Assembly (NCBI RefSeq): GCF_030013595.1
Contig: NZ_CP122768.1
DNA length: 64,000 nt
Source: Escherichia coli
GTDB lineage: Bacteria > Pseudomonadota > Gammaproteobacteria > Enterobacterales > Enterobacteriaceae
Reading direction: 5' to 3' (one strand)
The notes beneath the pieces were generated by a model, which was not told the origin of the DNA, ran no database searches, and saw only the letters and a list, made by a program, of their open reading frames with translations. The translations under genes and the position numbers were made by a program. Positions 6,750 to 41,054 of the stretch are shown piece by piece. Every line of letters begins with the position of its first letter. The first letter of the stretch is position 1.

Positions 6750-8885
6750 TTATTCGATAAGGCTTTCTGAAGGGGTGATCAGTTGTGGGTTCAGGCAGCT
6801 TTCATAATAGGCCTGAATCTTCATCATGCGAGTACGATGACGCTGGTAACGACGCCAGGCCTGTACGCCATTATAAATGGCGCTACCCAGCATCGTCAGT
6901 AGGAGCAGAGTGGTGCTGAGATAGCGCCACAGGCCGGAACGATCCGGGATCGGATGAAGGCCAATATGCTGCGTACCATTGGCGTCAGTGAAGATTTTTG
7001 TGACGATACCTTCGGCGTTAAACGGCGTATGCATCAGCATTTGTGCCAGTTTCTGGAAAGCGTTCCACTGTTCTTGCGGCGGATAGTCGTAAAGTGATGC
7101 CGAAGGCCAGGGCTGATCAACAAAATCGCTGCCTTCGTCGCTGACAATCAGGAACCCGCCGGGGGCCGGACTGTTTAGTGATTGTGCCGCTCGCGCCGTT
7201 TCATGCGTGATAAACGGCGCGGTAGAGGTGGCCACCAGGTTATCCAGCGATTCCGCACTCACCGGGCGTAATAACACATTCACGCCATCGAGTTTCCCGG
7301 CGTTGGCGCGTTTTACCAGCGCGTCCCAGTCTTTACTGTTACCGAGATTGACCAGCGCATTTTTCAGTCGCACACAGTCATCTTTGGCAGAACACAGATC
7401 CGCTGTCTTCAGTACTATGTCGCCAAAATCATCAAGCAATACCATGCCGGATTTTTGAATTGCTGAACGTAATGAGGCGCTGACGCGAGATTCATCTTCC
7501 GGTTTAGGGTGCAGCTGGCGATTAACTGCTTCGGTCAATGCCGTCGCTTTGTTGACCAATTCAGATTCTGGTAATGGCAATGAGCGGGCGTCATTCCAGA
7601 TGATCTGCGAGCAGTCAAACGGTAAAAAAGGTGAGTTGGTTTTCGCGCTCCAGGTACCGGAAGTGCGAATATTACACATTCCCGTACCGCTAATACGCAA
7701 TGTATCGCCAACCCGCACGCCAGCGTCAGCCAGTTGTTTCACGCTGGTGGCTTCAATGGTCTGCGCGCCTTTCATCCACGAGAGGGTGAATTTCAGCGGC
7801 ATATCCAGCGGGATCCAGAATAACAGCATAAACAGCACCAGCAGCGAACCCGCAGCGATAATCGTACTGCGCAGCCAGTGCTGTAACGGAAAGTTTTTTA
7901 CTTCATCATGGAGCGAAAGATATCGCCCCTGACGCACTACGTGGCGGTCGAGATAGATATCGATATCGGTTTGTTGACCAAGATCCTGAGCAATGTATGG
8001 CTGCCAGTGTGCGGGATAGACCAGGTCGATAATACCGAGTGAAATATTGTTGATCTGTTCCTGATCGTTTTCGCCAAACAATCCCCAACGACGGGGTGTA
8101 CCGCGCAGACAATGAATTTCCCGCAGGGAGGATTTTGCCGGGGGCGCGAATAGCCCCCACAGACCTGCGCCCAGCAGCAGTAACGCGCCGCCTGCCAGCC
8201 ACGGAACAAATACATCCGGGGTAATCAGGCAGAAAAAGAACATCAGGAAAGAGGCGACGATCAGCAACGCTTCACGCAGCCCGCGCGGACGACTCAGCGC
8301 ATATTCTTCGTGCGTTTCTTTGCGAATATTGAGTAGCTCGATTTGCTCACTCTCTTCCCCGCGAATCGACGCCTGTGTTGACGGAACAGGTTGCAAGGCA
8401 TAGCCGCGCGTTTCCTGCATGTACTCCTGCAGCGTATGACCGTTGAGTGAAATAACCAGCGGCAGCGAATTGGTATGAATCAGTTCAACGGTATTCTCAT
8501 CGTTGATGTACTGCTCCCAGAAAGGGGGCAGGTGGACTTCTACCGAATCGAGGTAGTAACGCCATTTATTCGGATCGTCGGTAGAGATGCCGTAACGCGT
8601 GATAGCGTGTGTCAGCATCATGACGTTGTTGCTTTCGGCATTCAGCGCCAGAGAGATCGGTGCCGCGCTGGCTCCCGTTGGGCCAGGCACCTGTAATACC
8701 TGCGTCAGGCTCTCAAGATAATTTTCAACGGCGCTATGTTCTTCAGGTGTGAGTTTACGCGTTTGCGCATCCGCGAAGGCGTTGGTCCAGGGCAGCTGAC
8801 GCCGTCTGGATCGCACTTTTATCAGCCATCCCGCAAGTAGTGAGCAGGCCAGCAAAGCAGCTAAAAAAATCACAATGGTGCTCAT
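6750..8885 (-). CDS. igaA: Rcs-phosphorelay negative regulator IgaA (YrfF), 711 aa
   Basis: 711-aa inner-membrane protein with several hydrophobic segments, in the expected position between yrfG and nudE. Confidence 0.9.
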   Translation of the reverse strand: MSTIVIFLAALLACSLLAGWLIKVRSRRRQLPWTNAFADAQTRKLTPEEHSAVENYLESLTQVLQVPGPTGASAAPISLALNAESNNVMMLTHAITRYGISTDDPNKWRYYLDSVEVHLPPFWEQYINDENTVELIHTNSLPLVISLNGHTLQEYMQETRGYALQPVPSTQASIRGEESEQIELLNIRKETHEEYALSRPRGLREALLIVASFLMFFFCLITPDVFVPWLAGGALLLLGAGLWGLFAPPAKSSLREIHCLRGTPRRWGLFGENDQEQINNISLGIIDLVYPAHWQPYIAQDLGQQTDIDIYLDRHVVRQGRYLSLHDEVKNFPLQHWLRSTIIAAGSLLVLFMLLFWIPLDMPLKFTLSWMKGAQTIEATSVKQLADAGVRVGDTLRISGTGMCNIRTSGTWSAKTNSPFLPFDCSQIIWNDARSLPLPESELVNKATALTEAVNRQLHPKPEDESRVSASLRSAIQKSGMVLLDDFGDIVLKTADLCSAKDDCVRLKNALVNLGNSKDWDALVKRANAGKLDGVNVLLRPVSAESLDNLVATSTAPFITHETARAAQSLNSPAPGGFLIVSDEGSDFVDQPWPSASLYDYPPQEQWNAFQKLAQMLMHTPFNAEGIVTKIFTDANGTQHIGLHPIPDRSGLWRYLSTTLLLLTMLGSAIYNGVQAWRRYQRHRTRMMKIQAYYESCLNPQLITPSESLIE

Positions 8886-9204
8886 GCTTTCCCCATCTTA
8901 CTTAGTCTGTCAGGCGTGGTCAGTCGCACCGGACACAATACATGATTCTGCGGTTGGCTATCGGCAAGCGTGGAGTTTAACTTGAGCATCATTAAGCACA
9001 TCACAGTAACCGCTGATCATAGCAAACCCTCTGAAGGCGGAATATCAGCAAATTCCTGGAGTTATTTCAACCTATTGACTTTTAATTTGATTTGAGGACG
9101 ATTATTTATTAAGTTACATAAATGTAAATAACATGCAATTCACATTGCCGAAAGCGTGTCCGATATCGCACAATAACCGCTGATTTCACAGCATAGATCC
9201 CACG

Positions 9205-9765
9205 ATGAGCAAATCATTACAAAAACCCACCATTCTGAATGTTGAAACTGTAGCCCGTTCCCGACTGTTTACCGTCGAAAGCGTGGATCTGGAGTTCAGC
9301 AATGGCGTGCGGCGTGTTTATGAACGAATGCGTCCAACCAACCGGGAAGCAGTGATGATTGTGCCGATTGTGGACGATCACCTGATCCTGATCCGCGAAT
9401 ACGCAGTGGGAACTGAATCCTACGAATTAGGTTTTTCGAAAGGATTAATTGATCCGGGTGAAAGCGTCTTCGAAGCCGCGAACCGCGAGCTAAAAGAAGA
9501 GGTGGGATTTGGTGCGAACGATCTGACTTTTTTGAAGAAGCTCAGCATGGCACCGTCTTACTTTTCCAGCAAAATGAATATCGTGGTAGCGCAAGATCTC
9601 TACCCGGAATCGCTGGAAGGCGATGAGCCAGAGCCGCTACCACAGGTGCGCTGGCCGCTGGCGCATATGATGGATTTGCTGGAAGACCCTGACTTCAACG
9701 AAGCGCGTAATGTCAGCGCGCTGTTCCTCGTGCGCGAATGGTTGAAAGGGCAGGGGCGAGTGTAA
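9205..9765 (+). CDS. nudE: ADP-compounds hydrolase NudE (Nudix)
   Basis: 186 aa with Nudix box GLIDPGESVFEAANRELKEEVG. Confidence 0.92.
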   Translation: MSKSLQKPTILNVETVARSRLFTVESVDLEFSNGVRRVYERMRPTNREAVMIVPIVDDHLILIREYAVGTESYELGFSKGLIDPGESVFEAANRELKEEVGFGANDLTFLKKLSMAPSYFSSKMNIVVAQDLYPESLEGDEPEPLPQVRWPLAHMMDLLEDPDFNEARNVSALFLVREWLKGQGRV

Positions 9766-9786
9766 ATGCGTGAAGTTTGCCTGATG

Positions 9787-9814
9787 CATAATGCTTATCA
9801 GGCCTGTGTGGCTC
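9787..9814. repeat. REP-like palindromic remnant
   Basis: gcctgatgcataatgcttatcaggcctg resembles the E. coli REP core GCCTGATGCG...CTTATCAGGCC. Confidence 0.45.
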
Positions 9815-9905
9815 CTGCAATATATTGATTTTTCAAGATGTTGCTAGACGGGTAAAATGTTCACGCCGTATCCGGTATAAACAAAGTGCACTTTGTCAGC
9901 AAACT

Positions 9906-9931
9906 TAAAAAGGCGCTGAAGCGCCTTTTTA
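9906..9931 (-). terminator. mrcA Rho-independent terminator
   Basis: Hairpin aggcgc-tgaa-gcgcct flanked by A and T runs, immediately 3' of the mrcA stop. Confidence 0.75.
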
Positions 9932-9932
9932 A

Positions 9933-12485
9933 TCAGAACAATTCCTGTGCCTCGCCATTATCGATAATGGTCGTTCCCACCTCGTGCACCGCCTGTTGTG
10001 TCGGCTGCGTACCTTCGATGAAATACTCTTCGCGGCTGTTGCCACCATTAGCTAACTGCCCGGTGCTGCGATCGATATTCACCGTCACAATACCCGGCGG
10101 CGGCGTCAGCGGCTGCTCCGGCACACCTTCAAGAACGGCTTTCATATAAGCGTCCCATGCAGGCTGGGCACTCTTGGCACCGCCTTCGTAACCTGAGATC
10201 TGATCTTTAATCGCTCCGGAAGCCGTTGTATGACCGAGATTACGACGGTGATCATCAAAGCCAATCCAGACCGAGGTCACAACGCCCGGACCGTAACCCG
10301 AAAACCACGCATCTTTCGAACTGTTAGTGGTACCGGTTTTCCCGCCGATATCGCGACGCTGCAAATCACGACCTGCACGCCAGCCGGTACCCTGCCAGCC
10401 TGGCTCACCAAAGATATTGGTGTTCAAAGCACTCTTAATCAGGAATGCCAGCGGAGTGTTGATGACGTGCGGTGCGTACTCCTGCGCGCCAGTCTTCGCC
10501 ACTAACGCCTGATTTGCCTGCTCCAGCTGCGGCATTGGCACAGAAACATTCTGCTGCTCGCGGGAGATAGCGACATCTTCAACATCGTTATTTTCCAGCA
10601 CGTTCGATTTCTGCGTATCACCGTAAATTACCGGAATATCGCATTCCGGGCAGGCTACTTTCGGTTTCGCTTCGAAAATCACGCCGCCCTGATCGTTTTC
10701 AATTTTGCTGATAAACCACGGGTCCACCAGGAAGCCGCCGTTCGCCATGACCGCGTAGCCGCGCGCCACCTGCATTGGGGTGAATGACGCTGAACCCAGC
10801 GCCAGCGATTCGGTGTGGACAATGTTTTGCGCCGGGAAGCCGAAGCGTTGCAGATATTCTGCAGCGTAGTCGACGCCCATCGCCCGCATTGCGCGTACCA
10901 TCACCACGTTTTTCGACTGGCCCAGTCCCTGACGTAAGCGAATTGGACCAGCATATTGTGGCGGCGAGTTTTTCGGCTGCCAGTCAGAACCGGCACCTGC
11001 GTCCCAGCGAGAAATTGGCACATCGTTCAACATACTTGCCAGCGTCAGACCTTTATCCATCGCCGCGGTGTAGAGGAACGGTTTGATGTTGGAACCCACC
11101 TGACGCAGTGCCTGGGTGGCGCGGTTAAACTTGCTCTGATTGAAATCAAAGCCACCGACCAGCGCCATAACGGCACCGTTTTGCGGATTGATCGACACCA
11201 GCGCCGAGTTCACTTCCGGCACTTGTGCCAGCCACCATGCATCGCCAACCTGACGAACCCAGATTTGCTGACCCGTTTGCAGAACATCGGTCACTTTACG
11301 CGGCGTCGGTCCCTGCTGAGTATCCGAACGGTAAGGACGCGCCCAGCGAACGCCTTCCATACTCAATGCGACGGTCGACCCGTCCGCCAGCATCGCCGTC
11401 GCTTCCTGAGGATTGGCGCTGGTGACTGCGGCAGGCAGCAGCGGACCATAGGTCGGCAGCGCCTTCAGCGTATCGGTAATCTTGTTGTTATCCCACGCCG
11501 ATTCGCCCACTTTCCACAGCACATTTGCCGGGCCGCGATAGCCGTGGCGCATGTCGTAGTCCAGCACGTTATTACGTACCGCCTGCTGTGCGGCCTGCTG
11601 CACTTTGCGGGTGATGGTGGTGTAAATGCGATAACCGTCTTCATAGGCACTTTCGCCATAACGGTTATACATCTCCTGGCGCACCATTTCGCTCAGGTAC
11701 GGCGCAGAGAAAGCAATCTCCGGCGCGTGATAGTTAGCGTTAATCGCCTCAGTGCGTGTCTGATCGAACTGTTGTTGGGTGATATACCCTTCATCCAGCA
11801 TCCGCGACAGTACGACGTTACGCCGCGCGACGGCACGATCCATTGAGTAGAGCGGATTAAAGGTGGAAGGCGCTTTCGGCAGCCCGGCTATCACCGCCAT
11901 TTCGTTCAGCGTCAGTTGGTCGACCGTTTTTCCGAAATAGACTTGTGCCGCAGCACCGACACCATAGGCGCGGTAGCCGAGGTAAATCTTGTTCAGATAA
12001 AGCTCGAGGATCTCGTCTTTCGTCAGCAACTGTTCAATGCGAATCGCGAGGAAGACTTCCTTAATCTTACGCATCAGCGTGCGTTCTGGACTGAGGAAGA
12101 AGTTTCTCGCCAGCTGCTGGGTAATGGTACTCGCCCCTTGTGACGCGTGGCCGGAGAACAGCGCCACACTTGCCGCACGGAAGATCCCCACCGGGTCAAC
12201 GCCGTGATGCTCGTAGAAGCGGCTGTCTTCCGTCGCGATAAAGGCTTTCACCATCTCCGGCGGGATTTGATCCAACGTAACCGGAATACGACGTTTCTCA
12301 CCGTATTGAGCAATCAGCTCGCCATCGGCGCTGTAAATCTGCATCGGAATTTGCAGGCGAACATCTTTTAATGTCGCCACATCCGGCAGTTGTGGCTCGA
12401 TGTAGCGGTATAGGCCATAAATCGAGCCTGCTCCCAGCAGAATGCAACAGACTGCAAGGATCAAAAAATACTTTACGAACTTCAC
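9933..12485 (-). CDS. mrcA: penicillin-binding protein 1A (bifunctional transglycosylase/transpeptidase), 850 aa from GTG
   Basis: Translation ...KFVKYFLILAVCCILLGAGSIYGLYRYIEPQLPD... with transpeptidase SxxK-type region; an alternative in-frame ATG lies at 12509. Confidence 0.93.
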   Translation of the reverse strand: MKFVKYFLILAVCCILLGAGSIYGLYRYIEPQLPDVATLKDVRLQIPMQIYSADGELIAQYGEKRRIPVTLDQIPPEMVKAFIATEDSRFYEHHGVDPVGIFRAASVALFSGHASQGASTITQQLARNFFLSPERTLMRKIKEVFLAIRIEQLLTKDEILELYLNKIYLGYRAYGVGAAAQVYFGKTVDQLTLNEMAVIAGLPKAPSTFNPLYSMDRAVARRNVVLSRMLDEGYITQQQFDQTRTEAINANYHAPEIAFSAPYLSEMVRQEMYNRYGESAYEDGYRIYTTITRKVQQAAQQAVRNNVLDYDMRHGYRGPANVLWKVGESAWDNNKITDTLKALPTYGPLLPAAVTSANPQEATAMLADGSTVALSMEGVRWARPYRSDTQQGPTPRKVTDVLQTGQQIWVRQVGDAWWLAQVPEVNSALVSINPQNGAVMALVGGFDFNQSKFNRATQALRQVGSNIKPFLYTAAMDKGLTLASMLNDVPISRWDAGAGSDWQPKNSPPQYAGPIRLRQGLGQSKNVVMVRAMRAMGVDYAAEYLQRFGFPAQNIVHTESLALGSASFTPMQVARGYAVMANGGFLVDPWFISKIENDQGGVIFEAKPKVACPECDIPVIYGDTQKSNVLENNDVEDVAISREQQNVSVPMPQLEQANQALVAKTGAQEYAPHVINTPLAFLIKSALNTNIFGEPGWQGTGWRAGRDLQRRDIGGKTGTTNSSKDAWFSGYGPGVVTSVWIGFDDHRRNLGHTTASGAIKDQISGYEGGAKSAQPAWDAYMKAVLEGVPEQPLTPPPGIVTVNIDRSTGQLANGGNSREEYFIEGTQPTQQAVHEVGTTIIDNGEAQELF

Positions 12486-22722: not shown

Positions 22723-22738
22723 TTTAACATTAATGCCA

Positions 22739-22763
22739 AAAACCGGGGAAACCCGGTTTTTTT
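22739..22763 (+). terminator. trpS Rho-independent terminator
   Basis: Hairpin aaccgggg-aaa-cccggtt followed by a T run. Confidence 0.8.
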
Positions 22764-22832
22764 ATCCTCATTTGCAATAATCCGAAAAAATGTGAAGCGT
22801 CTCGCCGTTTCCACATCTCGCAGTTGCCACTT

Positions 22833-22852
22833 ATCTTCATTTTTATGAAGAT
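22833..22852. promoter_or_regulatory. perfect inverted repeat ATCTTCAT-N4-ATGAAGAT about 30 bp upstream of yhfZ (candidate operator)
   Basis: 8-bp perfect arms read directly from the sequence; followed by TAAATATTCA (22855..22864). Confidence 0.35.
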
Positions 22853-22881
22853 ATAAATATTCACTTTATTGAAAATTTACT

Positions 22882-23787
22882 ATGCGTCGAACGTTTATCA
22901 AAAAAGAAGGCGTCGTCATCACGACACTGGCCCGTTATTTGTTGGGTGAAAAGTGCGGTAATCGACTGAAAACCATAGATGAACTGGCAACTGAATGCCG
23001 TTCATCCGTTGGCCTGACGCAGGCCGCGTTGAAAACGCTGGAATCAAGCGGAGCGATACGGATAGAACGCCGTGGGCGTAATGGCAGTTATCTGGTGGAA
23101 ATGGATAACAAAGCATTGCTGAGTCATGTGGATATCAACAATGTGGTGTGCGCGATGCCCTTGCCCTATACCCGTTTGTACGAAGGCCTGGCGAGCGGAT
23201 TGAAAGCCCAATTTGATGGCATTCCTTTTTACTATGCGCACATGCGCGGCGCGGATATTCGCGTGGAGTGTCTGCTTAATGGCGTGTATGACATGGCGGT
23301 GGTTTCCCGACTGGCGGCGGAAAGTTATCTCACGCAAAAAGGGTTATGCCTCGCGCTGGAGCTGGGGCCGCACACCTACGTTGGCGAGCACCAGTTGATT
23401 TGCCGTAAAGGCGAGTCCGCAAACGTGAAGCGCGTGGGGCTGGATAACCGTTCGGCGGATCAGAAAATCATGACCGATGTCTTTTTTGGCGATAGTGATG
23501 TGGAACGTGTCGATCTCTCTTATCACGAGAGTTTACAACGCATTGTTAAAGGCGATGTCGATGCGGTTATCTGGAACGTGGTGGCGGAAAACGAACTGAC
23601 CATGCTGGGATTAGAAGCGACGCCGCTCACAGACGATCCGCGATTTTTACAGGCCACCGAAGCCGTGGTTTTGACGCGAGTCGATGATTACCCGATGCAA
23701 CAATTGCTGCGTGCAGTTGTTGATAAACAGGCCCTGCTTGCCCATCAACAACGAGTGGTCTGTGGGGAACAGGAACCCAGTTATTAA
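22882..23787 (+). CDS. yhfZ: putative transcriptional regulator YhfZ (N-terminal winged-helix-like region)
   Basis: 301 aa; first gene of the yhf cluster as in E. coli. Confidence 0.85.
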   Translation: MRRTFIKKEGVVITTLARYLLGEKCGNRLKTIDELATECRSSVGLTQAALKTLESSGAIRIERRGRNGSYLVEMDNKALLSHVDINNVVCAMPLPYTRLYEGLASGLKAQFDGIPFYYAHMRGADIRVECLLNGVYDMAVVSRLAAESYLTQKGLCLALELGPHTYVGEHQLICRKGESANVKRVGLDNRSADQKIMTDVFFGDSDVERVDLSYHESLQRIVKGDVDAVIWNVVAENELTMLGLEATPLTDDPRFLQATEAVVLTRVDDYPMQQLLRAVVDKQALLAHQQRVVCGEQEPSY

Positions 23788-23803: not shown

Positions 23804-24166
23804 ATGGAAACCAGACTCAACCTGCTTTGCGATGCAGGCGTTATTGATAAGGACATCTGCAAAGGCATGATGCAGGTCGTCAACGTACTGGAAACAGAGT
23901 GTCATCTACCGGTGCGCAGCGAGCAAGGAATGATGGCGATGACACATATGGCGAGCGCACTGATGCGCAGTCGCCGTGGTGAAGAAATAGAGCCGCTGGA
24001 CGCCGAATTGCTGGCAGAACTGGCGCAATCCAGCCACTGGCAAGCCGTTGTGCAATTGCATCAGGTGTTGTTGAAGGAATTTACACTGGAAGTTAACCCG
24101 TGTGAAGAAGGCTATTTGCTGGCCAACCTTTATGGATTATGGATGGCTGCTAACGAAGAGGTTTGA
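23804..24166 (+). CDS. yhfY: YhfY, small PRD-like protein, 120 aa
   Basis: ATG at 23804 (METRLNLLCDAGVIDKD...); ORF track extends upstream into yhfZ. Confidence 0.8.
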   Translation: METRLNLLCDAGVIDKDICKGMMQVVNVLETECHLPVRSEQGMMAMTHMASALMRSRRGEEIEPLDAELLAELAQSSHWQAVVQLHQVLLKEFTLEVNPCEEGYLLANLYGLWMAANEEV

Positions 24167-24196
24167 AGCTCCCGACAAATCCACGTCGCACAACCT

Positions 24197-24220
24197 AAAT
24201 ATTCAAAAAAATGAATATTT
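24197..24220. promoter_or_regulatory. perfect inverted repeat AAATATTCA-N6-TGAATATTT 30 bp upstream of yhfX (candidate operator)
   Basis: 9-bp perfect arms; a third ATTCA half-site follows at 24222..24226. Confidence 0.4.
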
Positions 24221-24249
24221 AATTCAAGGAACAGAAACGAGGCAACAAG

Positions 24250-25413
24250 ATGTTTGTAGAAGCATTGAAACGCCAGAACCCGGCGCTAATTTCCGCCGCA
24301 CTAAGCTTGTGGCAAAAGGGCAAGATCGCCCCGGACAGCTGGGTGATCGACGTGGATCAGATACTGGAAAACGGTAAGCGGCTGATTGAGACGGCGCGGC
24401 TTTACGGCATTGAACTGTATCTGATGACCAAGCAGTTTGGTCGTAATCCGTGGCTGGCGGAAAAACTGCTGCCATTAGGCTACAGCGGCATTGTGGCGGT
24501 GGATTACAAAGAGGCGCGAGTCATGCGCCGCGCCGGTTTGCCGGTGGCGCATCAGGGGCATCTGGTACAAATCCCTTGTCATCAGGTTGCTGACGCCGTT
24601 GCACAGGGCACCGACGTCATCACCGTGTTTACTCTCGACAAAGCGCGGGAAGTTTCTGCGGCAGCGGTGAAGGCCGGACGTGTCCAGTCTGTGCTGCTAA
24701 AAGTTTATAGCGACGCTGATTTTCTTTATCCGGGGCAGGAGAGCGGTTTTGCCCTCCAGGTGTTGCCGGATATTGTCGCCGAAATCCAGAATCTGCCGGG
24801 GCTACATTTGGCGGGACTTACCCATTTCCCTTGCCTGCTTTGGGATGAGGCTGCCAGGAAAGTTTTGCCGACACCGAATCTTCACACGCTGGTACAAGCA
24901 CGGGATCAACTGGCGAAATCTGGTATTGCGATTGAGCAACTGAATGCGCCTTCAGCGACCAGTTGCACTTCGCTGCCGATGCTGGCGCAATACGGTGTGA
25001 CTCATGCCGAACCCGGTCATGCGCTGACGGGCACTATTCCGGCAAACCAGCAGGGCGATCAGCCTGAACGTATCGCGATGCTTTGGTTAAGTGAAATTTC
25101 CCACCATTTCCGTGGCGACAGCTACTGCTACGGCGGCGGTTACTACCGTCGTGGTCACGCGCAACATGCGCTGGTGTTTACGCCAGAAAATCAAAAGATT
25201 ACTGAAACCAATCTCAAAACTGTGGATGACAGCAGTATCGACTACACCCTGCCGCTGGCAGGCGAGTTTCCGGTAAGCAGTGCAGTAGTGCTCTGTTTTC
25301 GCACGCAGATTTTTGTCACCCGTAGCGATGTGGTGCTGGTGTCTGGTATTCATCGTGGCGAACCGGAAATCGTCGGTCGTTATGACAGCCTCGGCAACCC
25401 TCTGGAGGCGTAA
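24250..25413 (+). CDS. yhfX: YhfX, alanine-racemase-fold (fold-type III) PLP enzyme, substrate unknown
   Basis: 387 aa; N-terminal TIM-barrel-like region with candidate PLP lysine (LYLMTKQFG). Confidence 0.85.
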   Translation: MFVEALKRQNPALISAALSLWQKGKIAPDSWVIDVDQILENGKRLIETARLYGIELYLMTKQFGRNPWLAEKLLPLGYSGIVAVDYKEARVMRRAGLPVAHQGHLVQIPCHQVADAVAQGTDVITVFTLDKAREVSAAAVKAGRVQSVLLKVYSDADFLYPGQESGFALQVLPDIVAEIQNLPGLHLAGLTHFPCLLWDEAARKVLPTPNLHTLVQARDQLAKSGIAIEQLNAPSATSCTSLPMLAQYGVTHAEPGHALTGTIPANQQGDQPERIAMLWLSEISHHFRGDSYCYGGGYYRRGHAQHALVFTPENQKITETNLKTVDDSSIDYTLPLAGEFPVSSAVVLCFRTQIFVTRSDVVLVSGIHRGEPEIVGRYDSLGNPLEA

Positions 25414-29206: not shown

Positions 29207-30292
29207 ATGAAGACGTTTCCTCTGCAAAGCCTGACGCTTATTGAGGCGCAGCAAAAGCAGTTTGCGCTGGTGGACAGCATTTGTCGTCATTTTCCCGGGA
29301 GCGAGTTTCTTGCTGGCGGTGATTTAGGCTTAACGCCGGGGCTAAACCAGCCGCGCATTACCCAGCGTGTGGAACAGGTGCTGGCTGATGCATTTCACGC
29401 ACAGGCCGCGGCGCTGGTGCAGGGCGCGGGTACTGGCGCGATTCGTGCGGCGTTGGCGGCTTTGCTCAAACCGGGGCAGCGTCTTCTGGTGCATGACGCG
29501 CCTGTTTACCCGACGACTCAGGTCATTATTGAGCAGATGGGGCTGACGCTTATCACTGCTGATTTCAATGACCTGTTGGCACTGAAGCAGGTTGTCGACG
29601 AGCAACAACCAGATGCCGCGCTGGTGCAGCATACGCGCCAGCAGCCGCAGGACGGGTACATTCTGGCAGATGTGCTGGCAACGTTGCGCTCGGCTGGCGT
29701 TCCTGCATTAACCGATGACAACTATGCGGTGATGAAAGTGGCGCGAATTGGCTGCGAATGCGGGGCAAATGTCTCGACTTTTTCCTGCTTCAAGCTGTTT
29801 GGGCCGGAGGGTGTTGGCGCGGTGGTAGGTGATGCCGATGTTATTAGTCGGATTCGCGCCACGCTCTATTCCGGCGGCAGCCAGATTCAGGGCGCTCAGG
29901 CGCTGGAAGTCTTGCGTGGGCTGGTGTTTGCGCCAGTGATGCACGCGGTGCAGGCGGGGGTATCTGAACGGTTGCTGGCTTTGCTTAACGGCGGCGCGGT
30001 GGCGGAAGTGAAAAGCGCCGTCATTGCCAATGCACAGTCGAAGGTATTGATTGTGGAGTTTCATCAGCCGATTGCCGTCAGAGTGCTGGAAGAGGCGCAG
30101 AAACTCGGTGCCTTGCCTTACCCGGTTGGTGCAGAGTCGAAATATGAAATCCCGCCGCTCTTTTATCGACTTTCCGGAACGTTTCGCCAGGCGAATCCGC
30201 AGTTAGAACATTGCGCGATTCGCATTAACCCAAATCGCAGCGGTGAAGAGACGGTGCTGCGGATTTTGCGTGAGAGTATTGCCAGTATTTAA
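29207..30292 (+). CDS. yhfS: YhfS, putative fold-type I PLP-dependent enzyme
   Basis: 361 aa; candidate PLP-lysine region STFSCFKLFG. Confidence 0.85.
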   Translation: MKTFPLQSLTLIEAQQKQFALVDSICRHFPGSEFLAGGDLGLTPGLNQPRITQRVEQVLADAFHAQAAALVQGAGTGAIRAALAALLKPGQRLLVHDAPVYPTTQVIIEQMGLTLITADFNDLLALKQVVDEQQPDAALVQHTRQQPQDGYILADVLATLRSAGVPALTDDNYAVMKVARIGCECGANVSTFSCFKLFGPEGVGAVVGDADVISRIRATLYSGGSQIQGAQALEVLRGLVFAPVMHAVQAGVSERLLALLNGGAVAEVKSAVIANAQSKVLIVEFHQPIAVRVLEEAQKLGALPYPVGAESKYEIPPLFYRLSGTFRQANPQLEHCAIRINPNRSGEETVLRILRESIASI

Positions 30293-30333
30293 TCTTGTGC
30301 ATGATGTTTTCGAAAAGAATGCAGAAATAAATA

Positions 30334-30357
30334 CGCCCTCGGGTAACCCCGAGGGCG
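30334..30357. terminator. hairpin between yhfS and yhfL (likely yhfL terminator, bidirectional)
   Basis: 10-bp perfect stem cgccctcggg/cccgagggcg with 4-nt loop; T-rich on the minus-strand downstream side. Confidence 0.65.
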
Positions 30358-30398
30358 TCAGGCAATTAAACCGGTGTTAGCCGATTTCTGTCAGAGAC

Positions 30399-30566
30399 TT
30401 ACTGTGCAGTAGGACCGCAACCGCCAATGATTTTAGAAATAGAAATTGCCGGGTGCAGCAGGTAGTCGTAAGAGCAGTTCTTATCACGGTTTTCAATATG
30501 ACCAGTACATGCAGTTAACGTAGCCAGTACTGCGCCTACCAGTGCAACTTTAATAAATTTGTTCAT
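30399..30566 (-). CDS. yhfL: small lipoprotein YhfL, 55 aa (below ORF-track threshold)
   Basis: Hand translation MNKFIKVALVGAVLATLTACTGHIENRDKNCSYDYLLHPAISISKIIGGCGPTAQ*; lipobox LTAC. Confidence 0.85.
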   Translation of the reverse strand: MNKFIKVALVGAVLATLTACTGHIENRDKNCSYDYLLHPAISISKIIGGCGPTAQ

Positions 30567-30812
30567 TTACATTCCCTATGTATTATATATTAATTAATAT
30601 TCATTGATTATATGAATATAAGCAGACTGCTCATTAAGAACGATACAGGAATATTTAATTAGCGTCAGTGAGTGAATGGCTTAATTTTGTAAGTCGCTGT
30701 AACGGTGAATATAACCCATTAGCAGATAATATTTATTAAGGGGTTATGTTTTATTTGCTGAATATATAAAAAGAGTCATTAAGAAGGCCAGAATTCTCTG
30801 GCCCGGGTTACA

Positions 30813-32186
30813 TTAATGGTTGGAGAACCAGTTCAGTTTATCGCGCAGGCCAACAACACGACCAATAATAATTAGCGATGGACTGTTCATTTGCTGCGCC
30901 AGTTCGCCCAGCTGTGTGAGCGTACCGTCAATCACGCGCTGCGTGACTGCTGTTCCGTTTTCGACAATTGCCACCGGCATTTCGCCAGGCATACCGTGTT
31001 CAATCAGCTTTTGCTGAATAGTCGCAGCCTGATTCAGCCCCATATAGAACACCAGCGTTTGTTTTTCTGCCGCCAGGTTTTCCCAGTCCAGCTCGCCACC
31101 AGTTTTTAAGTGTCCGGTAATTAAGCGCACGCTCTGGGCATAATCGCGATGCGTGAGCGGAATACCCGAATAGGCAGAGCAACCAGAAGCTGCGGTAATA
31201 CCCGGAACCACCGAGAACGGAATACCCGCGTTGCACAGTGTTTCCAGCTCTTCTCCGCCACGCCCGAAAATAAACGGATCGCCGCCTTTCAGACGCACCA
31301 CGCGTTTACCTTTTTGCGCTTCCCGCAGCAAGATCTGGTTAATCTCTTCCTGCGGTACGCAGTGGTATCCCGCGCGTTTGCCGACGAAAACGCGATCAGC
31401 ATCGCGGCGTACCAGATTCATAATATCGTCAGAAACCAGACGGTCGTAGACCACCACATCAGCCTGCTGAATTTGTTGCAGACCTTTCAGTGTCAGCAGT
31501 CCGGCATCGCCCGGACCTGCACCAACCAGCACCACTTCACCGCGATGGTCGAGCGGTTCGTTGATTAACTGTTCGGTGGTTTCAGTAATGGCTTTCTGAT
31601 CGTTGTTGGCCAGCGACTGCGCCAGGCGGTCGTTAACGAACAATTTCTCCCAGAAACGGCGACGCTCACCCATCGTGGCGAACTGTTGTTTCACTCGCCC
31701 GCGTAATTGCCCGGCGTATTTCGCTACCTGGCCCAGATGTAACGGCAGCTGTGATTCGAGTTTTTCGCGCAACAGGCGCGCCAGAACCGGAGAGGTGCCG
31801 CCAGAGGATACCGCGACCATGAGCGGTGAGCGGTCAATAATCGACGGCATAATAAAGCTGGCGGCTTTCGGCGCATCGACCACGTTACAGAAGATGCGAC
31901 GAGCTTCAGCGGCTTCACTGACGCGCTGGTTAAGCGCGTCATCATCCGTCGCAGCAATTGCCAGCCAGCAGGTGTCGAGAAGGCTTTCATCAAATGGCCC
32001 TTCGACGAGGGTTAACATGCCTGCATCTGCCCATGCGGTGAACTGTGGAATAAACGCTAATGCATTCACCGTTAAGCGAGCGCCTGCGTCTAACAGCAAC
32101 CTTGCTTTGCGTTCCGCGACATCACCACCGCCGACAATCAGACAGTCGCGATCGCGTAATTGACAAAATATAGGCAAATGATCCAC
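30813..32186 (-). CDS. cysG: siroheme synthase (multifunctional)
   Basis: 457 aa; N-terminal NAD-binding GGGDVA region and C-terminal methyltransferase domain. Confidence 0.95.
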
Positions 32187-39748: not shown

Positions 39749-39818
39749 TTTCTGATTGCTATTAAGTGATTTTTTATGCATATTTTGTGATTATAATTTC
39801 ATATTGGTTTATGCGTAA

Positions 39819-41054
<1,236 letters not shown>

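What the first reader, a model, noticed from the sequence alone, without database searches (positions are those of the whole stretch)
24197..24226. Perfect 9-bp inverted repeat 30 bp upstream of yhfX, with a third half-site
AAATATTCA-aaaaaa-TGAATATTT (24197..24220) is a perfect palindrome with 9-bp arms in the 83-bp yhfY-yhfX gap, and another ATTCA follows at 24222..24226. The position fits an operator overlapping the promoter of the yhfX-yhfS operon. YhfZ, encoded just upstream, is the obvious candidate binder. The ATTCA/TGAAT half-sites also resemble ARG-box halves, though the spacing is not canonical.
Basis: seen in the sequence. Interest (0 to 1): 0.4.

Follow-up and report, generated by a model that had tools for sequence, protein, structure and literature searches.

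The report
Conserved operator for regulator YhfZ
The palindrome in front of yhfX is real and is one of three conserved DNA sites that most likely bind the uncharacterised E. coli regulator YhfZ, which gives a testable handle on a gene cluster of unknown function, although the mechanism itself is ordinary.

Summary
TAAATATTCA-AAAAAA-TGAATATTTA (24196-24221) lies in the 83-bp yhfY-yhfX gap.

It is not isolated. Two more sites with the same TTCA-N6-TGAA geometry lie just upstream of yhfZ (22832-22853 and 22855-22878).

All three are phylogenetic footprints across about 39 Enterobacterales species. The yhfX block carries 1.83 bits per position against 0.38 in its flanks.

In 749 kb of related sequence the motif occurs almost only at these positions.

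It also travels with the YhfZ family. Homologues only 32-48% identical carry TTCA-N6-TGAA in front of the regulator gene and of the first structural gene, whatever the gene order.

Homologues whose recognition helix starts xRG instead of SVG carry TAC(A/G)-N6-(C/T)GTA instead. This is protein-DNA covariation, 6/6 against 4/4.

An RNA hairpin (no compensatory changes) and ArgR (3 mismatches, wrong spacing) are rejected. The "third half-site" is not conserved.

The sites overlap or directly follow predicted core promoters, so repression is the most likely mode. No binding or TSS data exist, and no clear yhfX promoter is seen in Escherichia.

Verdict: a new member of a known kind, of moderate interest.

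The parts
24196..24221 (.). Operator X: TAAATATTCA-AAAAAA-TGAATATTTA (left arm 24196-24205, A6 spacer 24206-24211, right arm 24212-24221; core TTCA 24202-24205 / TGAA 24212-24215).
   Evidence: The 26-bp block is almost invariant in 40 loci. Mean information is 1.83 bits against 0.38 in the flanks. It occurs once per genome in 5074 of 5426 E. coli genomes and is unannotated.
24222..24226 (.). 'Third half-site' ATTCA. It is lineage-restricted and probably not part of the core operator.
   Evidence: present in Escherichia, L021 and L024 (C. koseri), shifted by 2 bp in Trabulsiella, and absent in the other Citrobacter, Klebsiella, Buttiauxella, Cedecea and others.
22855..22878 (.). Operator Z2: AAATATTCA-CTTTAT-TGAAAATTT (core TTCA 22860-22863 / TGAA 22870-22873). 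Its centre is 15 bp before the yhfZ ATG.
   Evidence: 1 mismatch to the X pattern, 0 expected. (centre 15 bp before the ATG in 37 of 37 orthologues)..
22832..22853 (.). Operator Z1: TATCTTCA-TTTTTA-TGAAGATA (core TTCA 22836-22839 / TGAA 22846-22849). Its centre is 39 bp before the yhfZ ATG and 24 bp upstream of Z2.
   Evidence: (centre 39 bp before the ATG in 36 of 37)..
22808..22837 (+). Predicted yhfZ promoter, option (a): -35 TTTCCA (22808-22813), 18-bp spacer, -10 TATCTT (22832-22837, the left arm of Z1). The inferred start is near 22844, inside Z1.
   Evidence: at least 5 bits in 35 of 37 orthologues, mean 8.5, up to 13 bits (TTGTCA-17-TATATT). This is a prediction only; there are no TSS data.
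22824..22852 (+). Predicted yhfZ promoter, option (b): -35 TTGCCA (22824-22829), 17-bp spacer, -10 GAAGAT (22847-22852, the right arm of Z1). The inferred start is near 22859-22860, at the edge of Z2.
   Evidence: at least 5 bits in 21 of 37. (TTGC conserved). This is a prediction only.
22791..22806 (.). CRP-like site TGTGA-AGCGTC-TCGCC. The left half is invariant. The right half keeps T, C and C at positions 1, 2 and 4.
   Evidence: TGTGA invariant in 35 orthologous regions, right half TCnCn. The centre at 22798.5 is about -60.5 relative to start (b) and about -45.5 relative to start (a). The assignment to CRP is inferred.
22882..23787 (+). yhfZ: a winged-HTH (HTH_41) plus YhfZ_C regulator, and the proposed binder. 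The recognition helix is residues 43-55, preceded by S42-V43-G44.
   Evidence: NF041241; conserved N-terminus fixes the ATG; model pLDDT 93.6; PDB 2OZZ covers the C-domain.
23804..24166 (+). yhfY: a 120-aa protein consisting of a PRD domain only, with no DNA-binding domain.
   Evidence: TIGR03582, E 3e-6; PF00874, E 0.007. PRD hits in the distant loci.
24250..25413 (+). yhfX: first gene of the structural block yhfX-yhfW-php-yhfU-yhfT-yhfS (to 30292). Shine-Dalgarno GAGG at 24239-24242.
   Evidence: GAGGCA conserved before the ATG.

Best explanation
The palindrome is a double-stranded DNA operator for the cluster's own regulator YhfZ, a winged-helix protein with a periplasmic-binding-protein-like sensor domain. 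YhfZ is inferred to bind as a dimer, with the two recognition helices reading TTCA and TGAA one helical turn apart across an A/T-rich 6-bp spacer. The cluster has three such operators. Z1 and Z2 lie over the yhfZ core promoter and transcription start, giving autoregulation, together with a CRP-like site upstream. X lies in the yhfY-yhfX gap and gates the six structural genes. The most likely mode is repression. At yhfZ this would work by occluding the promoter. At X it would work by occluding a weak internal promoter whose -10 would lie in one operator arm, by blocking read-through from the yhfZ promoter, or both. An unknown ligand of the YhfZ C-domain, or a signal passed through the PRD protein YhfY, would release it. 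Shown: the sites, their conservation, their restriction to this cluster, and their covariation with the regulator. Inferred: binding by YhfZ, dimer geometry, repression, promoter positions and the inducer.
For: (1) Recurrence: the same 9-N6-9 pattern lies 3 nt before the yhfZ ATG (22855-22878; 0.00 expected), and a third TTCA-N6-TGAA site lies 24 bp further upstream.
(2) Footprint: in 40 loci from about 39 species the X block is TAAATATTCAAAAAAATGA(A/T)TATTTA with sharp edges. It carries 1.83 against 0.38 bits. Block identity to E. coli is 0.88-1.00 in eight of the nine genera compared (0.69 in the rearranged L035), where the flanks are 0.12-0.72. Z1 and Z2 keep fixed distances from the ATG in 36/37 and 37/37.
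(3) Specificity: a PWM scan of 749 kb gave 120 hits of at least 14 bits, only 5 of them outside the three positions. Two of those 5 are Z1/Z2 of a truncated locus. One lies upstream of the relocated yhfY in Pluralibacter gergoviae. The 40-mer occurs once per E. coli genome.
(4) The motif follows the regulator. Homologues 32-48% identical (GC 27-48%) have TTCA-N6-TGAA within 70 bp upstream of the regulator gene in 6 of 6 loci. In L049 and L055 it also precedes the PRD gene, which there is the first structural gene.
(5) Protein-DNA covariation: regulators with SVG at the start of the recognition helix go with TTCA-type sites. Regulators with ARG/SRG/GRG go with TAC(A/G)-N6-(C/T)GTA in 4 of 4 loci, and neither type appears in the other's regulatory zones.
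(6) YhfZ is the only protein in the cluster with a DNA-binding domain, and the model places S42-V43-G44 at the cap of the recognition helix of a three-helix winged HTH.
(7) Repressor-type geometry: operators overlap the conserved predicted yhfZ promoter, and lie just downstream of near-consensus promoters in distant loci (L049 TTGACA-16-TAAACT; L055 TTGACT-16-TAATAT and L044 TTGACA-17-TATAAC).
Against: There is no experimental binding, expression or TSS evidence. The literature held calls YhfZ only a 'putative transcription factor', and four TSS resources yielded nothing.
In Escherichia no convincing promoter surrounds X (best 3.5 bits), so 'operator over the yhfX promoter' may be wrong there. 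A roadblock or looping role is only inferred.
The invariance of the A6 spacer, always A on the coding strand at X, is more than a simple dimer-operator model requires and is unexplained.
One related lineage (L043) lacks a site before yhfX, and one GC-rich homologue (L048) shows no recognisable site.
The covariation rests on 10 distant loci plus one Enterobacterales lineage, and these are not fully independent.
Confidence: 0.75

Rival explanations
1. YhfZ binds the site but activates instead of repressing. The palindrome would recruit or remodel RNA polymerase at a weak yhfX promoter, for example by binding within the spacer region in the manner of MerR.
For: No recognisable -35 lies near X in Escherichia or Citrobacter, as is usual for activator-dependent promoters. 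The architecture, a winged HTH plus a type-II binding-protein fold, most resembles LysR-type regulators, which are often activators.
Against: The site centre is only 40-53 bp from the yhfX ATG, and a conserved GAGG must lie on the mRNA. The centre therefore falls inside or downstream of any core promoter and not at -41.5 or -61.5. In distant loci the operator lies downstream of strong consensus promoters that need no activator. Z1 and Z2 cover the -10 to +25 region of the yhfZ promoter.
Confidence: 0.15
2. The inverted repeat acts as an RNA hairpin in the yhfY-yhfX intercistronic region, serving in processing, stability or translational control.
For: The 73-nt region folds at -10.5 kcal/mol, z = -3.0 against shuffles, with the 9-bp A-U stem in the MFE structure.
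Against: There are no compensatory changes in 10 pairs. The substitutions (TGAAT to TGATT, TGATG and others) break pairs with no change in the partner, and pairing is no better than in shuffled partners. There is no G+C-rich stem and no U-run, so it is not a terminator. The hairpin does not cover the Shine-Dalgarno sequence. The same motif recurs at promoters and covaries with a DNA-binding helix.
Confidence: 0.04
3. The site is bound by ArgR: ARG-box-like TGAAT/ATTCA halves link the cluster to arginine control.
For: TGAAT-ATTTA-ATTCA (24212-24226) resembles an ARG box. The pattern search finds it at 3 mismatches.
Against: Three mismatches, a 5-nt rather than 4-nt centre, and no second box 2-3 bp away. 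The ATTCA that completes it is not conserved outside a few lineages. The conserved dyad has the opposite polarity (ATTCA-N6-TGAAT). The real argD operator in the same window has two boxes at 2 mismatches each, 3 bp apart (39765-39803).
Confidence: 0.02
4. A different, unlinked transcription factor or nucleoid protein (A-tract-dependent Fis, IHF or H-NS) binds the AT-rich block, and YhfZ is a bystander.
For: The block is 85% A+T with an A7 tract. No binding experiment assigns it to YhfZ.
Against: The invariant positions include the specific C and G of TTCA/TGAA, and the block edges are sharp. The motif is confined to yhf clusters in 749 kb. It appears beside YhfZ homologues in unrelated low-GC organisms and changes with the YhfZ recognition helix.
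Confidence: 0.04

Closest known systems
Local autoregulated winged-HTH repressors of catabolic operons with several palindromic operators (for example GntR-family FadR, NagR/DasR and FrlR; in logic also LacI with O1/O2/O3)
   Same: A regulator encoded in the cluster. Dyad-symmetric operators at its own promoter and at the structural genes. Operators overlap or follow the core promoter. A CRP-like site lies upstream. NCBI names YhfZ a GntR-family regulator.
   Different: The N-terminal domain matches Pfam HTH_41, not the GntR model PF00392. The C-terminal domain is a type-II periplasmic-binding-protein fold, not a FadR, HutC, MocR or YtrA domain. The motif TTCA-N6-TGAA is not, to my knowledge, that of any characterised E. 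coli factor. A separate PRD protein is always co-encoded.
LysR-type transcriptional regulators (OxyR, CbnR, BenM; box T-N11-A, for example ATAC-N7-GTAT)
   Same: The overall architecture of winged HTH plus PBP-type-II effector domain. Full-length LTTRs are the best full-length fold matches after 2OZZ. The xRG-type operators ATAC(A/G)-N6-TGTAT resemble ATAC-N7-GTAT.
   Different: No Pfam HTH_1 or LysR_substrate match. Large rmsd of 12-17 A. The model has only a short helix between the wing and the sensor domain, not the long linker helix of LysR-type regulators. The gene is co-directional with its targets, not divergent. The dyad spacing differs.
PRD-containing regulators controlled by the phosphotransferase system (LicT/BglG antiterminators; MtlR, LicR and LevR activators)
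   Same: A PRD domain protein (YhfY) is encoded next to the regulator in every lineage examined, which suggests that a phosphorylation signal feeds into the switch.
   Different: Here the PRD is a separate 120-aa protein with no RNA- or DNA-binding domain. The cis element shows no RNA covariation, so it is not a RAT/terminator. No PTS EII domains were identified in the cluster.
ArgR operator (ARG boxes)
   Same: It shares the pentamers TGAAT and ATTCA and the AT-rich context.
   Different: Opposite dyad polarity in the conserved part, wrong spacing, no tandem boxes, and the completing half-site is not conserved.

Membership tests
Operator of the cluster-encoded regulator YhfZ (local regulator-operator pair) | The site recurs at the regulator's own promoter and at the regulated operon. 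| tested here: met
   X at 24196-24221; Z1 at 22832-22853; Z2 at 22855-22878. The same two-place layout is seen in L049, L055, L045 and L051.
Operator of the cluster-encoded regulator YhfZ (local regulator-operator pair) | The site is conserved as a discrete block while the flanking intergenic DNA diverges. | tested here: met
   1.83 against 0.38 bits; edges at -13 and +12. 40 loci.
Operator of the cluster-encoded regulator YhfZ (local regulator-operator pair) | The site sequence covaries with the regulator's DNA-reading residues. | tested here: met
   SVG goes with TTCA-N6-TGAA (6 distant loci plus Enterobacterales). xRG goes with TAC(A/G)-N6-(C/T)GTA (4 loci). There are no cross-type sites in the regulatory zones.
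Operator of the cluster-encoded regulator YhfZ (local regulator-operator pair) | Direct binding of the protein to the DNA, and a regulatory effect. | not testable with these tools
   No EMSA, footprint, ChIP or reporter data in the held literature.
Operator of the cluster-encoded regulator YhfZ (local regulator-operator pair) | The operator overlaps a functional promoter (repression by occlusion). | tested here: inconclusive
   A conserved predicted promoter lies over Z1/Z2. At X it is weak or absent in Escherichia and better in the Buttiauxella clade (TTGTCA-18-AATATT, 8.4 bits). No TSS data.
GntR family of regulators | An N-terminal GntR-type winged HTH (Pfam PF00392). | tested here: not met
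   Only PF14502 HTH_41; no PF00392 hit even at E up to 10. Weak or faint PF00392 hits exist in two distant homologues. The fold is a three-helix winged HTH. NCBIfam NF041241 nevertheless names it GntR family.
GntR family of regulators | A C-terminal effector domain of a recognised GntR subfamily (FadR, HutC, MocR, YtrA and others). | tested here: not met
   The C-domain is YhfZ_C, a type-II periplasmic-binding-protein fold.
LysR-type regulators | HTH_1 and LysR_substrate domains, a linker helix, and a T-N11-A box. | tested here: not met
   No such Pfam hits. The fold resemblance has rmsd of 12-17 A. The dyad is TTCA-N6-TGAA.
ArgR operator (ARG box) | An 18-bp box WNTGAATWWWWATTCANW, in tandem 2-3 bp apart. 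| tested here: not met
   3 mismatches, a single box, a 5-nt centre. The third half-site is not conserved.
Structured RNA element / intrinsic terminator | Base pairs maintained by compensatory change; for a terminator, a G+C-rich stem and a U-run. | tested here: not met
   0 compensatory pairs, and substitutions break pairs. The terminator scan finds nothing at the site.
CRP binding site (upstream of yhfZ) | TGTGA-N6-TCACA at a class I or class II distance from the start. | tested here: inconclusive
   TGTGA is invariant and the right half is TCnCn. The distance depends on an unmapped start: about -60.5 or about -45.5.

The most novel reading that the evidence does not exclude
YhfZ and YhfY form a previously undescribed split regulator class. 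It consists of a winged-HTH/binding-protein-fold DNA binder plus a stand-alone PRD protein. Operator specificity is set by two residues at the cap of the recognition helix (S-V reads TTCA, x-R reads TACA/TACG). The invariant, strand-biased A7 tract in the main operator has a function of its own, for example a start site with reiterative transcription or a required DNA bend, beyond merely spacing the half-sites.
Probability: 0.15. Interest if true: 0.6.

Novelty: new member of a known kind. Interest (0 to 1): 0.42.

Why it matters
YhfZ and the eight-gene yhfZYXW-php-yhfUTS cluster belong to the part of the E. coli genome with no known function. The cluster is present in 5084 of 5426 complete E. 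coli genomes, and its regulator family has 663 clusters at 50% identity. A defined operator motif with three mapped sites gives several practical tools. It allows a reporter (yhfX or yhfZ promoter fusions in wild type against a yhfZ deletion) with which to screen for the unknown inducer and so the substrate of the pathway. It gives a PWM for predicting the regulon in any genome. It also gives a simple two-residue specificity hypothesis that can be tested by swapping SV and xR. The mechanism itself, a local regulator on palindromic operators, is textbook.

Tried and rejected
1. RNA hairpin: it folds moderately well but shows no covariation. Rejected.
2. Intrinsic terminator after yhfY: none found by the scan.
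3. ArgR/ARG box: poor match and not conserved. Rejected.
4. The third half-site as part of the operator: not conserved.
5. Experimental TSS: the supplements of Cappable-seq (PMC4782308), ROSE (PMC10301672), Romero et al. (PMC4681348) and the Rend-seq annotation paper (PMC11092163) held nothing for yhfX or yhfZ or for the K-12 coordinates. Thomason et al. 2015 is not held.
6. Literature on yhfZ, yhfX, DUF2620 and HTH_41: no study of regulation. The attenuator paper mentions yhfZ only for the BIME upstream of it in K-12. The riboswitch-entropy paper lists windows assigned to the operon php-yhfSTUWX that lie 5.7-12.5 kb away from it and are not this site.
7. L040 (Firmicutes, truncated homologue) and L048 (GC 67%) gave no recognisable site.
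8. A strong sigma-70 promoter at X in Escherichia: not found.
9. A genome-wide scan of E. coli for further sites was not possible with these tools. Only the 64-kb window, 41 orthologous loci and a BLAST of the 40-mer were covered.

Full report
**1. The observation**

The sequence is as described. AAATATTCA (24197-24205), AAAAAA (24206-24211), TGAATATTT (24212-24220) and ATTCA (24222-24226) are all in place. The complementary arms extend to 10 bp (24196-24205 / 24212-24221, I25).

The surrounding genes are damX-dam-rpe-gph-trpS, then yhfZ (22882-23787), yhfY (23804-24166), yhfX (24250-25413), yhfW, php, yhfU, yhfT and yhfS (to 30292), all on the + strand. The yhfY-yhfX gap is 83 bp.

The window is Escherichia DNA, 95-99% identical to most E. 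coli genomes. The site is identical in K-12 MG1655 (3511006-3511029, minus strand).

A perfect 10-bp inverted repeat with a short spacer is rare in random sequence: 0.9 expected per window under a first-order Markov model, against about 14 places observed. Most of the observed ones are G+C-rich terminators. The palindrome alone is therefore a lead and not proof.

**2. It is one of three related sites**

Searching the window for the 9-N6-9 pattern with up to 3 mismatches gave exactly one more hit. It is AAATATTCA-CTTTAT-TGAAAATTT at 22855-22878, ending 3 nt before the yhfZ ATG, with 0.00 hits expected in shuffles.

Directly upstream lies TATCTTCA-TTTTTA-TGAAGATA (22832-22853), which has the same TTCA-N6-TGAA core. 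I call these sites Z2, Z1 and X.

The yhfZ start codon is secure, because M1, R3 and F5-G10 are invariant among orthologues.

**3. Phylogenetic footprint**

A scan of one genome per species returned 41 loci with a YhfZ relative, and 39 of them have the yhfZ-yhfY-yhfX neighbourhood. They cover Escherichia, Citrobacter, Klebsiella, Pluralibacter, Trabulsiella, Buttiauxella, Cedecea, Lelliottia, Chimaeribacter, Superficieibacter and Atlantibacter.

- Upstream of yhfX, every locus carries TAAATATTCA-AAAAAA-TGA(A/T)TATTTA, or a variant differing at one to three positions. YhfX identity falls to 62% and the flanking intergenic DNA is unalignable.
- Information content is 1.83 bits per position inside the 26-bp block and 0.38 outside, with sharp edges.
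- The distance from the site centre to the yhfX ATG varies between 40 and 53 bp.
- Z1 and Z2 keep fixed distances from the yhfZ ATG: 39 bp in 36 of 37 loci and 15 bp in 37 of 37.
- The shared consensus is (T)AT(A/C)TTCA-N6(A/T-rich)-TGAA(G/A/T)AT.
- The "third half-site" ATTCA is kept only in Escherichia, C. koseri and one other genome, and is shifted in Trabulsiella. It is not part of the conserved unit.

**4. Restriction to the cluster**

A symmetrised PWM built from the sites was run over the window and all 41 loci (749 kb). It gave 120 hits of at least 14 bits, and only 5 were outside the three positions.

- Two of the five are Z1 and Z2 of a truncated locus.
- One lies just upstream of yhfY in Pluralibacter gergoviae. 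There yhfY has moved in front of yhfZ, so the site follows the start of the transcription unit and not a particular gene.
- The 64-kb window has no other hit.
- A 40-mer around X occurs once per genome in 5074 of 5426 complete E. coli genomes, with no annotated feature under it.

**5. DNA or RNA?**

The region would fold as RNA (-10.5 kcal/mol, z = -3). On the ten distinct X sequences, however, none of the 10 pairs shows a compensatory change. The substitutions, notably TGAAT to TGATT in the Buttiauxella/Cedecea group, break pairs without a change in the partner, and pairing is no better than with shuffled partners.

There is no G+C-rich stem or U-run, and the stem does not cover the Shine-Dalgarno sequence. 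The element is read as double-stranded DNA.

**6. Who binds it?**

YhfZ is the only protein of the cluster with a DNA-binding domain: PF14502 HTH_41 plus PF14503 YhfZ_C, and NCBIfam NF041241. YhfY is a PRD domain and nothing else.

An exhaustive search found 663 YhfZ-family clusters at 50% identity. I fetched genomic context for eleven distant members at 32-48% identity. They sit in the same kind of cluster (PRD protein, DUF2620, YhfT, PTE, YhfS, YhfX), but in other gene orders.

- Six loci carry an exact TTCA-N6-TGAA within 70 bp upstream of the regulator gene: L043, L044, L047, L049/50, L054 and L055/56, with GC of 27-48%. Several have the same A6 spacer.
- L055 has TAAATATTCAAAAAAATGAAA, almost the E. 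coli X site, although its regulator is only 32% identical.
- L049 and L055 have a further copy in front of the PRD gene, which there heads the structural genes.
- Four other loci (L045/46, L051, L052, L053) have no TTCA site. At the same places they carry TACA-AAATTA-TGTA, TACA-AATAAA-TGTA, TACG-AAATTT-CGTA and TACA-GAATCC-TGTA.

This split matches the protein. The residues that cap the recognition helix (E. coli S42-V43-G44) are SVG in every TTCA-type regulator and ARG, SRG or GRG in every TAC(A/G)-type regulator. Neither type appears in the other's regulatory zones.

By my own arithmetic, a 6-against-4 perfect association has an exact probability of 1 in 210. The lineages are not fully independent.

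The AlphaFold model (pLDDT 93.6) shows a three-helix winged HTH with recognition helix 43-55 and a beta-hairpin wing, followed by an alpha/beta domain. That domain matches PDB 2OZZ (the YhfZ C-domain) and type-II periplasmic-binding-protein folds. The nearest full-length architectures are LysR-type regulators, at large rmsd.

The half-site centres are 10 bp apart, which is one helical turn, as expected for a dimer on one face of the DNA. This last point is inference.

**7. Mode of action**

No experimental start sites could be found, so the promoters are predictions.

Upstream of yhfZ two conserved candidates exist.
- (a) TTTCCA (22808-13), 18-bp spacer, TATCTT (22832-37). It scores at least 5 bits in 35 of 37 orthologues, and up to 13 bits.
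- (b) TTGCCA (22824-29), 17-bp spacer, GAAGAT (22847-52).

In (a) the -10 is the left arm of Z1 and the start falls inside Z1. In (b) the -10 is the right arm of Z1 and the start falls at the edge of Z2. Either way both operators cover the -10 to +25 region.

An invariant TGTGA-N6-TCnCn (22791-22806) upstream looks like a CRP site. It would be at about -60.5 for (b), close to the class I position. This assignment is inferred.

In distant loci the operator lies a few bases downstream of near-consensus promoters: TTGACA-16-TAAACT in L049, TTGACT-16-TAATAT in L055 and TTGACA-17-TATAAC in L044. This is repressor geometry.

At X the same arm positions give weak -10 candidates (AATATT at 24198-24203, or GAATAT/GATTAT at 24213-24218). 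These come with good -35 elements only in some clades, for example TTGTCA in Buttiauxella at 8.4 bits. In Escherichia the best score is 3.5 bits.

X may therefore repress a weak internal promoter, block read-through from the yhfZ promoter (no terminator follows yhfY), or both. Activation is unlikely. The site centre is 40-53 bp from the ATG and a conserved GAGG must be on the mRNA, so the site lies within or downstream of any core promoter.

**8. The ArgR idea**

The ARG-box pattern fits 24210-24227 only with 3 mismatches and a 5-nt centre. No second box follows, and the completing ATTCA is not conserved.

The same search found the real thing elsewhere in the window. Two boxes at 2 mismatches each, 3 bp apart, lie at 39765-39803, immediately upstream of argD (39834-41054).

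**9. Comparison with what is known**

In behaviour this is a local, probably autoregulated, winged-HTH repressor with several dyad operators and catabolite control, like many GntR- or LacI-type sugar regulators.

By membership it is not a classical GntR protein: there is no PF00392 match and the C-domain is foreign to that family. It is not a LysR-type protein either: it lacks the family's Pfam domains and has a different dyad. It belongs to its own family, HTH_41 plus YhfZ_C.

The full-text library holds no study of its binding site or regulon. RegulonDB and RegPrecise could not be consulted.

**10. Unexplained**

The A6 spacer of X is invariant and always A-rich on the coding strand, and it recurs in distant low-GC lineages. 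Z1 and Z2 tolerate other A/T-rich spacers. A dimer that contacts only the half-sites does not need this. Possible reasons are a required bend or narrow minor groove, or a start site within the tract. This is open.

**11. Verdict**

The finding is real. Its core interpretation (an operator, with YhfZ as binder) is well supported by comparative evidence. The secondary ideas (third half-site, ArgR) are not.

It is a new member of a known kind. Its main value is as an entry point to an uncharacterised but widespread cluster.

Noticed in passing
window 39765-39803: Two ARG-box-like 18-mers (AGTGATTTTTTATGCATA and TGTGATTATAATTTCATA, 2 mismatches each, 3 bp apart) lie about 30 bp upstream of a 406-aa ORF at 39834-41054, which I take to be argD from its size and gene order. 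This looks like the known ArgR operator of argD, and it served as a contrast to the yhfX site.
   Followed up: partly
window 30293-30812: This strain lacks frlABCDR. In K-12 the frl operon lies between yhfS and yhfL/cysG. Here yhfS (stop at 30292) is followed by a terminator-like repeat (30333-30358), a small minus-strand ORF resembling yhfL, an AT-rich stretch, and then a 457-aa ORF the size of cysG (30813-32186, minus strand).
   Followed up: partly
L042 (K-12) 9470-9634 against window 22723-22770: K-12 has about 130 bp of extra REP/BIME-like sequence between trpS and the trpS terminator/yhfZ promoter region, and the window lacks it. This is the BIME that an attenuator survey associated with yhfZ (PMC2965389). 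It lies upstream of the conserved promoter block and does not touch the operators.
   Followed up: partly
L035 (Pluralibacter gergoviae) 8500-10010: The gene order is rearranged, with yhfY upstream of yhfZ and yhfX about 100 bp after yhfZ. A TTCA-N6-TGAA site (8519) lies before yhfY. The site before yhfX has a non-A spacer (TTCA-GTAATC-TGAA). No site lies directly before yhfZ.
   Followed up: partly
L024 (Citrobacter koseri) 9001-9904: The yhfZ match is split (residues 1-254 in one frame, and the locus is 1 nt longer), which suggests a frameshifted yhfZ. Z1, Z2 and X are still intact.
   Followed up: no
window 22864-22881 and the orthologues: yhfZ has no Shine-Dalgarno sequence. The right arm of Z2 ends 3 nt before the ATG in the window (8-9 nt from the TGAA core to the ATG), and the same holds in distant homologues (L054, L055). 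Translation must start from an A/U-rich, SD-less or very short leader.
   Followed up: no
window 59967-60012: The longest AT-rich inverted repeat in the window is ATTCATATTTAA...TTAAATATGAAT, with 12-bp perfect outer arms 22 bp apart. It lies about 150 bp upstream of a 900-aa exported-protein ORF (60160-62862), which is possibly chiA judging by size and position. Its function is unknown, and it is not a match to the YhfZ motif geometry.
   Followed up: no
L045, L052, L049, L055 (distant clusters): The YhfZ, PRD, DUF2620 and YhfT genes stay together across phyla, but the enzyme genes vary (PTE, YhfS, YhfX, an amidase in L052, a beta-lactamase-fold protein in L055). This suggests a conserved uptake and regulation module with exchangeable catabolic enzymes.
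   Followed up: no
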